Under the pieces are notes generated by a model. That model did not search any database. It was given only the letters and a program-made list of their open reading frames with translations, and was not told the origin of the DNA. Position numbers and translations under genes: made by a program. A stretch of DNA of 61,900 bases, counting the filler, from Candidatus Zapsychrus exili (GTDB lineage Bacteria > Omnitrophota > Gorgyraeia > Zapsychrales > Zapsychraceae): NCBI GenBank assembly GCA_030765585.1. It is 7 parts of 7 records of this genome, joined end to end, with 100 filler letters (N's around TTAATTAATTAA, not from the genome) between each part and the next. Parts side by side here need not be neighbours in the genome. Positions count along the whole stretch, not along the records: positions 19,620 to 29,567 come from JAVCCJ010000071.1; 6 more parts are not named here. One strand, 5' to 3'. Below, in pieces: positions 28,152-28,360 of this stretch (position 1 is its first letter; each line of letters begins with the position of its first letter).

Positions 28152-28360
28152 TATCATCAGATCATGATAAAACGTTAGTGAGTCAGGTTGAGATTAGTTG
28201 ATCTTTTAGGACTGCTAATCTAGCGAAATCGAGATCGTCCTCCCCTCGAACTGAATTTTTAAGTTCGTACGTAGCTGGATCCGATTTCGTTGCTCATTGG
28301 TTAAATCCGAACAATCGCATGGGCTGAAATTAATATTTCAAGCCCGAATTACAAGGAAGT
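28152..28360 (+). ncRNA. IS110 bridge RNA (ends approximate)
   Basis: Target guides CCTCCCCT (28239-28246) and TACGTAG (28268-28274); donor guides ACAATCGC (28311-28318) and TACAAG (28350-28355). Each pair flanks an internal hairpin. Confidence 0.88.

What the first reader, a model, noticed from the sequence alone, without database searches (positions are those of the whole stretch)
28152..28360. Readable bridge RNA: all four guides match this element's own target and donor
Seen: the reconstructed target is CCTCCC-CT-ACGTA and the donor is ACAATCG-CT-TGTA. In the non-coding end, CCTCCCCT (28239-28246) equals the left target plus core, and TACGTAG (28268-28274) is the reverse complement of CTACGTA. 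These flank hairpin CGAACT..AGTTCG inside stem GCGAAATCG/CGATTTCGT. ACAATCGC (28311-28318) equals the left donor, and TACAAG (28350-28355) is the reverse complement of CTTGTA; these flank GGGCTGAAAT..ATTTCAAGCCC. Established: this is the target-loop/donor-loop layout of IS110 bridge RNAs (Durrant et al. 2024). The class is known, but this compact 313-aa ortholog and its specificity may be uncharacterised, making it a candidate programmable recombinase.
Basis: partly seen in the sequence, partly recalled or inferred. Interest (0 to 1): 0.9.

Follow-up and report, generated by a model that had tools for sequence, protein, structure and literature searches.

The report
Bridge RNA of an IS110 element
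This is an intact jumping gene of the IS110 family whose guide RNA spells out both its own ends and the site it landed in, a well-known kind of RNA-guided recombinase system of which this copy is simply a new, untested example.

Summary

The region is the left non-coding end of a single-copy, 1,235-bp IS110-family insertion sequence (window 28139-29373) flanked by CT cores. It encodes a 313-aa DEDD-plus-serine recombinase. This protein meets NCBIfam "IS110 family RNA-guided transposase" and folds like the solved IS621 and ISCro4 recombinases (TM 0.66-0.69, 27-28% identity).

A covariance model built here finds the same two-loop RNA upstream of the recombinase gene in 98 of 99 related loci. In those matches 94.8% of cells are paired and 24 of 26 pairs show compensatory changes. 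The loop guides covary with each element's own flanks. The handshake-guide rule, a short subterminal inverted repeat and a promoter split across the circle junction are also present.

The target is the 3' arm of a REP-like GC-rich hairpin repeat.

No RNA, circle or empty-site evidence was obtained, so activity is inferred.

At 313 aa against 326 aa for IS621, "compact" is overstated.

Verdict: a genuine bridge RNA system, a new member of a known kind, of modest interest.

The parts
28116..28136 (+). GC-rich hairpin of the insertion site (GGGAGG 28116-21 / CCTCCC 28131-36, 9-nt loop). Its 3' arm is the left target.
   Evidence: Sequence. It belongs to a repeated hairpin family in this genome.
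28131..28138 (+). Left target (CCTCCC) plus the left copy of the CT core (28137-28138)
   Evidence: Identical to the LTG at 28239-28246.
28139..29373 (+). IS110-family insertion sequence, 1,235 bp counting one CT core. Left end is 229 nt and right end 64 nt. Single copy in the genome.
   Evidence: The LE head TGTATGTTG and the RE tail TTGAC..ACA(G/A)TCGCT are conserved in relatives, while the flanks diverge.
28141..28146 (+). Predicted -10 box TATGTT. It is completed by the -35 box in the right end only when the element is circular.
   Evidence: TTGACT-17 nt-TATGTT across the joined RE-LE. Inferred by consensus, not by transcript data.
28144..28146 (+). Left half (GTT) of the 3-bp subterminal inverted repeat flanking the 14-nt donor
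   Evidence: AAC/GTT in the window. AAG/CTT and AAC/GTT alternate in relatives.
28153..28362 (+). Predicted bridge RNA, about 210 nt. The 5' end is inferred from the -10 box and the 3' end from the end of the donor-binding loop.
   Evidence: fold. R1 matches 28209-28367 at 109.5 bits (the window was in the seed).
28174..28221 (+). 5' stem-loop region preceding the target-binding loop
   Evidence: MFE prediction only; not tested by covariation.
28222..28291 (+). Target-binding loop module. Basal stems are 28222-31/28282-91 and 28233-36/28278-81. The distal hairpin is 28247-52/28262-67.
   Evidence: Helices 1-4 are 88-97% paired across 101 distinct rows, and every pair has compensatory changes.
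28238..28246 (+). Left target guide, (U)CCUCCCCU. It equals the top strand of the left target plus core, so it pairs with the bottom strand.
   Evidence: Orientation rule from Durrant et al. 2024.
28268..28274 (+). Right target guide, UACGUAG, the reverse complement of CT-ACGTA (29372-29378)
   Evidence: RTG-flank covariation in relatives.
28275..28276 (+). Handshake guide of the target loop (CU). C28275 is complementary to donor position 7 (G29371) and not to target position 7.
   Evidence: 30 of 30 relatives obey. Rule from Hiraizumi et al. 2024.
28306..28362 (+). Donor-binding loop module. The weak basal stem is UCC 28306-08 with GGA 28355-57 (MFE), or 2 of 3 pairs in the family register. 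The distal hairpin is 28320-30/28335-46.
28311..28318 (+). Left donor guide, ACAAUCGC. It equals the right-end terminus ACAATCG plus the first core base.
28350..28355 (+). Right donor guide, UACAAG, the reverse complement of CT-TGTA (28137-28142)
28356..28357 (+). Handshake guide of the donor loop (GA). G28356 is complementary to target position 7 (C28136) and not to donor position 7.
   Evidence: 29 of 30 relatives obey.
28368..29309 (+). Recombinase gene, 313 aa. It has a RuvC-like DEDD domain (D10, E54, D96, D99), a coiled coil, and a Tnp domain with S235. A likely ribosome-binding site AAGGAAG lies at 28353-28359.
29353..29358 (+). Predicted -35 box TTGACT in the right end
   Evidence: TTGA is at this fixed distance in 73-82% of 90 distinct relatives' right ends.
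29362..29364 (+). Right half (AAC) of the 3-bp subterminal inverted repeat
29365..29373 (+). Left donor (ACAATCG) plus the right copy of the CT core
29374..29378 (+). Right target (ACGTA)

Best explanation
Window 28139-29373 is an intact IS110-group insertion sequence. Its 229-nt left end encodes a bridge RNA of about 210 nt (about 28153-28362). Inferred steps: when the element is excised as a circle, the right end (-35 TTGACT) and the left end (-10 TATGTT) join to form a promoter that transcribes the RNA. The RNA folds into a 5' stem-loop and two stem-loops with large internal loops. The first loop carries (U)CCUCCCCU and UACGUAG, which pair with the bottom strand of CCTCCC-CT and the top strand of CT-ACGTA in the target. 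The second loop carries ACAAUCGC and UACAAG, which pair in the same way with the joined element ends ACAATCG-CT-TGTA. A tetramer of the 313-aa DEDD/Ser recombinase, held together by the RNA, cuts after the CT core through a phosphoserine intermediate (S235). It then exchanges strands, helped by handshake bases C28275 and G28356, and resolves the junction. This inserts the element between CCTCCCCT and ACGTA at the 3' arm of a REP-like GC hairpin. Shown here: the sequence anatomy, family membership, structural covariation and guide-flank covariation. Inferred from IS621 work: transcription, RNA binding, chemistry and programmability.
For: Guides are exact and unique at the stated places, and they are far beyond chance (47 of 200,000 shuffles hold 2 or more of the 4). 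The protein carries PF01548 (E 8e-25) and PF02371 (E 5e-19). It scores 218.9 bits on NF033542, 'IS110 family RNA-guided transposase', against a cutoff of 140. It gives full-length sequence matches to ISCro4 (E 2e-30) and IS621 (E 1.5e-28) chains. The predicted fold (mean pLDDT 75) has these same chains as its ten best PDB hits, at TM 0.66-0.69 and 27-28% identity. D10, E54, D96, D99 and S235 are invariant in 37 clade members. The RNA structure gave 26 consensus pairs, 21 with compensatory changes in 13 sequences. Model R1 hits just upstream of the gene in 98 of 99 related loci and once in the 61.9-kb window. On those hits 94.8% of cells pair, against 35-47% with slid partners, and 24 of 26 pairs change on both sides. 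Guide-flank covariation: each locus's own RTG matches its own right flank for 6 or more consecutive bases in 59 of 92, against 2.2% for other loci's RTGs. Each locus's own LTG 8-mer is found with 0-1 mismatch upstream in 49 of 80, against 13%. The handshake rule holds in 30 of 30 and 29 of 30 loci, with covarying exceptions, and holds in the window. The subterminal repeat AAC/GTT is present. The junction promoter is TTGACT-17-TATGTT, with the -35 conserved in relatives. LE (229 nt) is longer than RE (64 nt), as in the IS110 group. The target lies in a repeated hairpin family, as with the REP targeting of IS621. The closest relative with DNA (L082, 58% aa) has two copies on one contig, each behind the same hairpin arm matching its own LTG.
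Against: There is no transcript, circle-junction or empty-site evidence. There is only one copy in the genome. No near relative's empty site was found, so the boundaries rest on the guides themselves plus end conservation in relatives. A perfect 13-nt target at C22:9123 is unoccupied. The basal stem of the donor loop has a C.U mismatch in the family register. Column pair 181-252 is unpaired in 1 of 98 rows; that this row is the window's is my reading of the alignment, not a printed result. The LDG does not pair with the second core base, although this position varies across the family: C 49, A 22, T 19, G 5 of 95. The window was one of the 13 seed sequences of R1, so its own score is not independent. 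LTG registration in the model alignment is imperfect for distant relatives: 31 of 80 have 2-3 mismatches.
Confidence: 0.88

Rival explanations
1. The anatomy is that of a bridge RNA element, but this copy is an immobile relic. It is fixed at one site and no longer transposes, because of a weakened RNA scaffold or an enzyme defect not visible in conserved residues.
For: It is single copy. A perfect free target site is unoccupied. The donor-loop basal stem has a mismatch that almost no relative has. No relative at E<=1e-20 was found in 60 kin genomes.
Against: The reading frame is intact and all 89 clade-invariant residues are present, including the DEDD/Ser residues. All four guides are perfect and both promoter halves are intact. 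Decay would be expected to hit these first. MAG assemblies tend to collapse or lose IS copies.
Confidence: 0.1
2. The matches are coincidental or reflect only terminal sequence reuse, such as a transposase 5' UTR with inverted repeats, with no RNA guide role.
For: There is no direct RNA evidence. Rfam 15 gave no family match here (seven weak, unrelated matches at E 0.42-4.4, all far below their gathering scores).
Against: The shuffle test, the structural covariation and the guide-flank covariation across 75 distinct RTGs and 73 distinct LTGs all argue against chance. The strand logic also matches the published rule exactly: left guides equal the top strand and right guides are the reverse complement.
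Confidence: 0.01
3. The true mobile unit is larger than 28139-29373, for instance a cargo-carrying derivative, and the CT-flanked unit is only its core.
For: The contig ends 194 nt beyond the right end, so the downstream context is short. A 2026 preprint reports IS110 elements that expand into large units (seen only in the search listing and abstract start).
Against: Both termini carry the conserved family end sequences, which match the donor guides. The sequence outside matches the target guides and a host hairpin repeat.
Confidence: 0.01

Closest known systems
IS621 (E. coli) recombinase and its 177-nt bridge RNA (Durrant et al. 2024, PMC11208160; Hiraizumi et al. 2024, PMC11208158; PDB 8WT6)
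   Same: The domain order is the same: RuvC-like DEDD, coiled coil, then Tnp with a catalytic Ser. The RNA lies in the left end, with a 5' stem-loop plus target- and donor-binding internal loops. It shares the CT core, the same strand logic for all four guides, handshake guides, a promoter rebuilt at the circle junction, and a repeated palindromic hairpin as target.
   Different: The protein is only 27-28% identical in the structural alignment and is 313 rather than 326 aa. The predicted RNA is longer (about 210 nt). The natural RTG is 7 nt including the core, where IS621's is 4. The LDG does not cover the second core base. The host is an uncultured low-GC (34%) bacterium seen in salt-lake metagenome runs. 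Nothing has been tested experimentally.
ISCro4 / IS622 (Citrobacter rodentium; Perry et al. 2025 preprint 10.1101/2025.05.14.653916; PDB 9T56)
   Same: It is the best sequence and fold match among solved structures (E 2e-30, TM 0.66-0.69), with the same architecture.
   Different: ISCro4 is 88% identical to IS621, so it is as distant from this protein as IS621 is. ISCro4 is shown to be active in human cells, whereas this element is untested.
The unnamed metagenomic clade of 309-315-aa IS110 transposases (P0002-P0053; locus L082)
   Same: Protein identity is 54-90%. Where DNA is available (L082), the RNA scaffold is the same (GAGAUCGU...GUAGC...GAUC), the donor is similar (ACAACCG-CT-TGTATG), and the element inserts behind the 3' arm of a GC hairpin ending CCCCT.
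   Different: The target guides differ (L082: UCGGCCCCU / UUCGUAG). DNA for the 90% relative could not be fetched.
IS1111-group elements with seekRNA or a right-end bridge RNA
   Same: They have the same recombinase family and the same principle of RNA-guided target and donor pairing.
   Different: There the RNA lies in the right end and the subterminal repeats are 7-17 bp. Here the RNA is in the left end, LE is longer than RE, and the repeat is 3 bp. This element is therefore not a member of that group.

Membership tests
IS110 family, IS110 group (bridge recombinase element) | N-terminal RuvC-like DEDD domain (PF01548) with all four acidic residues | tested here: met
   PF01548 at E 8.1e-25 over residues 7-149. 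D10, E54, D96 and D99 are invariant in 37 clade members. They align with the IGID, EAT and KTDxxDA motifs of IS621.
IS110 family, IS110 group (bridge recombinase element) | C-terminal Tnp domain (PF02371) with the conserved catalytic serine | tested here: met
   PF02371 at E 4.9e-19 over residues 191-274. S235 in RDSGQ is invariant and aligns with the ESG of IS621.
IS110 family, IS110 group (bridge recombinase element) | Curated family score | tested here: met
   NF033542, 'IS110 family RNA-guided transposase', equivalog: 218.9 bits against a cutoff of 140.
IS110 family, IS110 group (bridge recombinase element) | Fold like the solved IS621/ISCro4 recombinases | tested here: met
   The ten best PDB hits are 9T56, 8WT6 and 8WT9 chains, at TM 0.66-0.69 and E about 1e-17. 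The model has mean pLDDT 75, and the Ser-loop region 214-247 has low confidence.
IS110 family, IS110 group (bridge recombinase element) | Element flanked by a duplicated short core (CT), with no long terminal inverted repeats | tested here: met
   CT is at 28137-38 and 29372-73. The only terminal repeat is the 3-bp subterminal AAC/GTT.
IS110 family, IS110 group (bridge recombinase element) | Left non-coding end longer than the right end and holding the RNA | tested here: met
   LE is 229 nt and RE 64 nt. The R1 match is in the LE only.
Bridge RNA (Durrant et al. 2024) | [quoted passage not shown] | tested here: met
   94.8% paired and 24 of 26 pairs compensatory, with 0 of 500 shuffles reaching the observed value for percentage of cells paired, cells changed on both sides, further pair types and covariation score, and 10 of 500 for the number of pairs changed on both sides. 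The 5' stem-loop is predicted only.
Bridge RNA (Durrant et al. 2024) | LTG equals the top strand of left target plus core. RTG is the reverse complement of core plus right target. | tested here: met
   8 of 8 (9 with a wobble) and 7 of 7 bases match.
Bridge RNA (Durrant et al. 2024) | LDG and RDG match the joined element ends in the same strand logic | tested here: met
   8 of 8 bases for the LDG (the ninth, the second core base, is not matched) and 6 of 6 for the RDG.
Bridge RNA (Durrant et al. 2024) | Handshake guides 3' of the RTG and RDG pair with position 7 of the non-cognate DNA and not the cognate DNA | tested here: met
   C28275 pairs with donor G7 and G28356 with target C7. The family obeys in 30 of 30 and 29 of 30 loci, with 0 of 30 cognate pairings.
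Bridge RNA (Durrant et al. 2024) | Sigma-70-type promoter reconstituted across the RE-LE junction | tested here: met
   TTGACT-17 nt-TATGTT, with the -35 conserved in 90 distinct right ends. This is a consensus match only.
Bridge RNA (Durrant et al. 2024) | RNA is expressed, binds the recombinase and directs reprogrammable recombination | not testable with these tools
   No RNA run holds the stretch. A bench assay is needed.
Bridge RNA (Durrant et al. 2024) | Match to a curated RNA family model | tested here: inconclusive
   Nothing relevant came up in Rfam 15 at E<=10. I could not establish whether Rfam 15 holds a bridge RNA family at all.
IS1111 group | RNA in the right end, RE longer than LE, and subterminal inverted repeats of 7-17 bp | tested here: not met
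   The RNA is in the LE, the RE is only 64 nt and the repeat is 3 bp.

The most novel reading that the evidence does not exclude
This element is an active bridge recombinase whose RNA scaffold and protein are far enough from IS621/IS622 (27-28% identity) to be orthogonal to them. It would naturally use a longer 9+7-nt target read-out, and so give a second, independently programmable bridge system from a low-GC salt-lake bacterium.
Probability: 0.3. Interest if true: 0.45.

Novelty: new member of a known kind. Interest (0 to 1): 0.3.

Why it matters
Bridge recombinases are the only known single-protein, single-RNA systems that specify both partners of a DNA recombination. Only a few orthologues (IS621, IS622/ISCro4 and a handful of others) have been tested, and in one screen 18 of 72 gave a detectable product in human cells. 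This locus offers a complete natural parts list: recombinase, RNA, donor, target and handshake bases. It belongs to a distant clade, so it is a reasonable candidate for ortholog screening or orthogonality tests. It does not change the understanding of the mechanism. Durrant et al. already predicted bridge RNAs in 85.7% of IS110-group elements, and NCBI's family model now names such proteins RNA-guided transposases.

Tried and rejected
Rfam 15 scan of 27900-29800 at E<=10: seven matches at E 0.42-4.4, all unrelated and far below their gathering scores.

Sequencing runs: two DNA metagenome runs hold the stretch, and no RNA holder is listed. Only contigs could be laid. They bridge the integrated left junction in both runs (X1 record 1; X2 record 8). 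They show no joint, no circle junction and no empty site.

Empty-site search: the left flank was searched in 30 kin genomes. It found only weak gene matches and copies of the hairpin repeat, with no orthologous empty site. The recombinase was searched in 60 kin genomes, with none at E<=1e-20.

Earlier scan notes near this place: nothing to show.

Supplements of Durrant et al. 2024. The target 11-mer occurs only in one target sequence, which appears once in file 4 and twice in file 5, where it is listed under a different target-loop group. The donor 13-mer occurs 16 times, and the passages shown have other flanks. The element's own LE head and RE tail are not found. File 2 was unreadable and file 4 was cut when stored, so absence from their full database is not shown.

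I did not test R1 on IS621 itself because I had no stored IS621 DNA. I did not determine the host's taxonomy.

Full report
OBSERVATION. The left junction reads CCTCCC-CT|TGTATG (28131-28144). The right junction reads ACAATCG-CT|ACGTAA (29365-29379). The reconstructed target CCTCCC-CT-ACGTA and donor ACAATCG-CT-TGTA are therefore correct. Each string occurs once in the left end.

I ran 200,000 dinucleotide-preserving shuffles of 28143-28367. The four words appeared in 366, 1,149, 426 and 5,004 shuffles respectively, and two or more appeared together in 47. The shuffles keep the composition of a sequence that really contains these words, so the control is conservative. The left end folds better than all 200 shuffles, with z = -3.1.

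THE ELEMENT. The unit 28139-29373 is 1,235 bp counting one core. It holds one gene, 28368-29309, encoding 313 aa. The protein has PF01548 (DEDD_Tnp_IS110) and PF02371 (Transposase_20). It passes NCBIfam NF033542, 'IS110 family RNA-guided transposase', at 218.9 bits against a cutoff of 140. It aligns end to end with the solved ISCro4 and IS621 transposases, at E 2e-30 and 1.5e-28.

An AlphaFold model built from 37 clade sequences has mean pLDDT 75, with low confidence in the loop around S235. Its ten best PDB matches are ISCro4 and IS621 chains, at TM 0.66-0.69 and 27-28% identity, followed by TIGR-Tas and RuvC. D10, E54, D96, D99 and S235 are invariant in the clade. They line up with the residues that Hiraizumi et al. 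2024 identify as the composite active site: D11, E60, D102, D105 and S241 (passages read).

The element is single copy in the 2.04-Mb, 129-contig genome. It lies 194 nt from a contig end. Its G+C is about 0.31-0.36, close to the genome's 0.34.

THE RNA: COMPARATIVE EVIDENCE. I fetched 160 related loci. Eighty came from reference genomes, at most 50% protein identity. Eighty came from metagenomes, at most 58%.

The regions upstream of the closest genes align into a common scaffold. RNAalifold gives 26 pairs, 21 with compensatory changes among 13 sequences. The pairs form a long basal stem, an internal loop and a distal hairpin, and then a short basal stem, an internal loop and a distal hairpin.

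A covariance model built from this alignment (R1) was run over the window and 99 of the 160 loci. The tool takes 100 sources, so I left out L129-L161 and most extra copies from genomes already represented. R1 hit immediately upstream of the gene, on the gene's strand, in 98 of 99 loci. The exception, L111, has only 95 nt upstream. R1 hit once in the whole 61.9-kb window, at 28209-28367 with 109.5 bits; the window was a seed sequence.

On the resulting alignment 94.8% of cells are standard pairs, against 34.7-47.2% when partners are slid by 1-3 columns. Twenty-four of 26 pairs change on both sides. None of 500 shuffles reached the observed percentage of cells paired, number of cells changed on both sides, number of further pair types or covariation score; 10 of 500 reached the observed number of pairs changed on both sides. 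That alignment is fitted to the model, which favours the structure somewhat. The slid controls and the independent alifold result argue that the signal is real.

GUIDES COVARY WITH FLANKS. There were 95 full-length matches. For 92 of them the right end could be located by the LDG. In 59 of these 92, the locus's own RTG matched its own core plus right flank for at least 6 consecutive bases. The figure is 2.2% when RTGs are swapped among loci, across 75 distinct RTGs.

For 80 loci with at least 150 nt upstream, the locus's own LTG 8-mer occurred with 0-1 mismatch in 49, against 13% for swapped LTGs, across 73 distinct LTGs. The remaining 31 had 2-3 mismatches, partly because loop columns of distant relatives are not in perfect register.

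The strand logic is the published one. The left guides equal the top strand, so they pair with the bottom strand. The right guides are reverse complements of the top strand. The core is included in each pairing (Durrant et al. 2024, passages read).

FURTHER HALLMARKS.
(i) Handshake guides. Hiraizumi et al. describe bases just 3' of the RTG and RDG. These bases pair with position 7 of the non-cognate DNA after strand exchange and must not pair with the cognate DNA. In the window C28275 is complementary to donor G7 and G28356 to target C7, and neither is complementary to its cognate. Among 30 distinct relatives with both junctions located, the rule holds in 30 of 30 and 29 of 30, with covarying cases and 0 of 30 cognate pairings.
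(ii) A 3-bp subterminal inverted repeat flanks the 14-nt donor. It is AAC/GTT in the window. It is perfect in 14 of 30 relatives against 20% in swapped controls, with AAG/CTT and AAC/GTT alternating. Durrant et al. report such a 2-3-bp repeat.
(iii) Joining the right end to the left end creates TTGACT-17 nt-TATGTT. TTGA sits at the same distance from the core in 73-82% of 90 distinct relatives' right ends. This matches the junction promoter described for IS621. In the integrated state the -35 position is occupied by flank sequence that does not resemble a -35 box (my reading).
(iv) LE is 229 nt and RE 64 nt, as in the IS110 group and unlike IS1111.

TARGET. The insertion lies between the stop of a minus-strand gene fragment (51 codons, open at the contig end, ending at window 29410) and the start of a histidine-kinase gene (26423-28057, minus strand). 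It sits at the 3' arm of a hairpin, GGGAGG-9 nt-CCTCCC.

The genome holds 24 copies of CC[N]CCCCTAC, against about 1.8 expected from composition. Twenty of them have a complementary arm within 24 nt upstream. The two-hairpin block 28075-28138 recurs elsewhere in this genome and in one kin genome. So the target is a REP-like repeat, in line with IS621 and other IS110 elements.

One perfect 13-nt site (C22:9123) and one single-mismatch site (C51:10355) are free. The closest relative with DNA, L082, carries two copies about 70 nt apart. Each sits behind a hairpin arm ending TCGGCCCCT, which equals its own LTG.

WHAT IS NOT SHOWN. No RNA run holds the region. The two DNA runs could be laid only as contigs. 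They bridge the integrated left junction and show no circle or empty site. No near relative provided an empty site, and none of 60 kin genomes has a relative of the recombinase at E<=1e-20. Expression, RNA-protein binding, cleavage chemistry and programmability are therefore inferred from IS621/IS622 work.

Recent papers suggest that excision is inefficient and may use different substrate geometry or half-site recognition (abstracts read). I did not examine this here.

Two small departures in this copy deserve mention. The donor-loop basal stem has a C.U mismatch in the family register; one of 98 rows is unpaired at that pair, which by my reading is the window's row. The LDG does not cover the second core base, a position that varies across the family.

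COMPARISON AND VERDICT. It works like IS621, and it passes every membership feature that sequence analysis can test. It is not of the IS1111 type.

It is distant from the characterised enzymes (27-28% identity). It belongs to an unnamed metagenomic clade of about 313-aa proteins, with the nearest at 90% identity and the next at 64% or less. Its end sequences are not in the searchable supplementary files of Durrant et al. 2024. That does not show absence from their database. At 313 against 326 aa it is not notably compact.

Bridge RNAs were already predicted in 85.7% of IS110-group elements. This is therefore a new member of a known kind: a clean, complete candidate for ortholog screening, but not a surprise to a specialist.

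Noticed in passing
window 19520-19619, 29568-29667, 36511-36610, 41347-41446, 52287-52386, 57932-58031: The window is a chain of contigs joined by spacers of 44 N, 12 letters and 44 N. The finding lies on contig C41 (window about 19620-29567), 194 nt from its end.
   Followed up: partly
window 28075-28138; genome C22:9123, C51:10355, C48, C49, C65, C73 and others: A REP-like family of GC-rich hairpins ends in CCCCTAC (typically GGGCGG-N-CCGCCCCTAC). There are 24 hits against about 1.8 expected, and 20 have a complementary arm. The two-hairpin block next to the IS recurs in this genome and in kin genome G012.
   Followed up: partly
L082 220-260 and 1352-1529: The closest relative with DNA has two copies of its element about 70 nt apart on one 1.5-kb contig. 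Each is inserted behind the same hairpin arm. L066 also carries two RNA matches about 1.26 kb apart.
   Followed up: partly
window 28368-29309 (protein): There are weak matches to TIGR-Tas: NF052498 at E 5e-4, far below its cutoff, and the fold hit 9MTY at TM 0.56. This fits a published link between these families that I saw only as a title and abstract start in the search listing.
   Followed up: no
window 28306-28308 with 28358-28360: In the family register, the basal stem of the donor-binding loop has a C.U mismatch in this copy. Relatives keep CCC/GGG or UCC/GGA there.
   Followed up: partly
window 24543-28057, minus strand: The neighbouring genes are a 432-aa ORF at 24543-25841 that I did not scan, a pyrimidine-dimer DNA glycosylase (26088-26417) and a HAMP/HisKA/HATPase sensor kinase (26423-28057). 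The IS sits in the kinase's upstream region, 81 nt from its start codon, in the opposite orientation.
   Followed up: no
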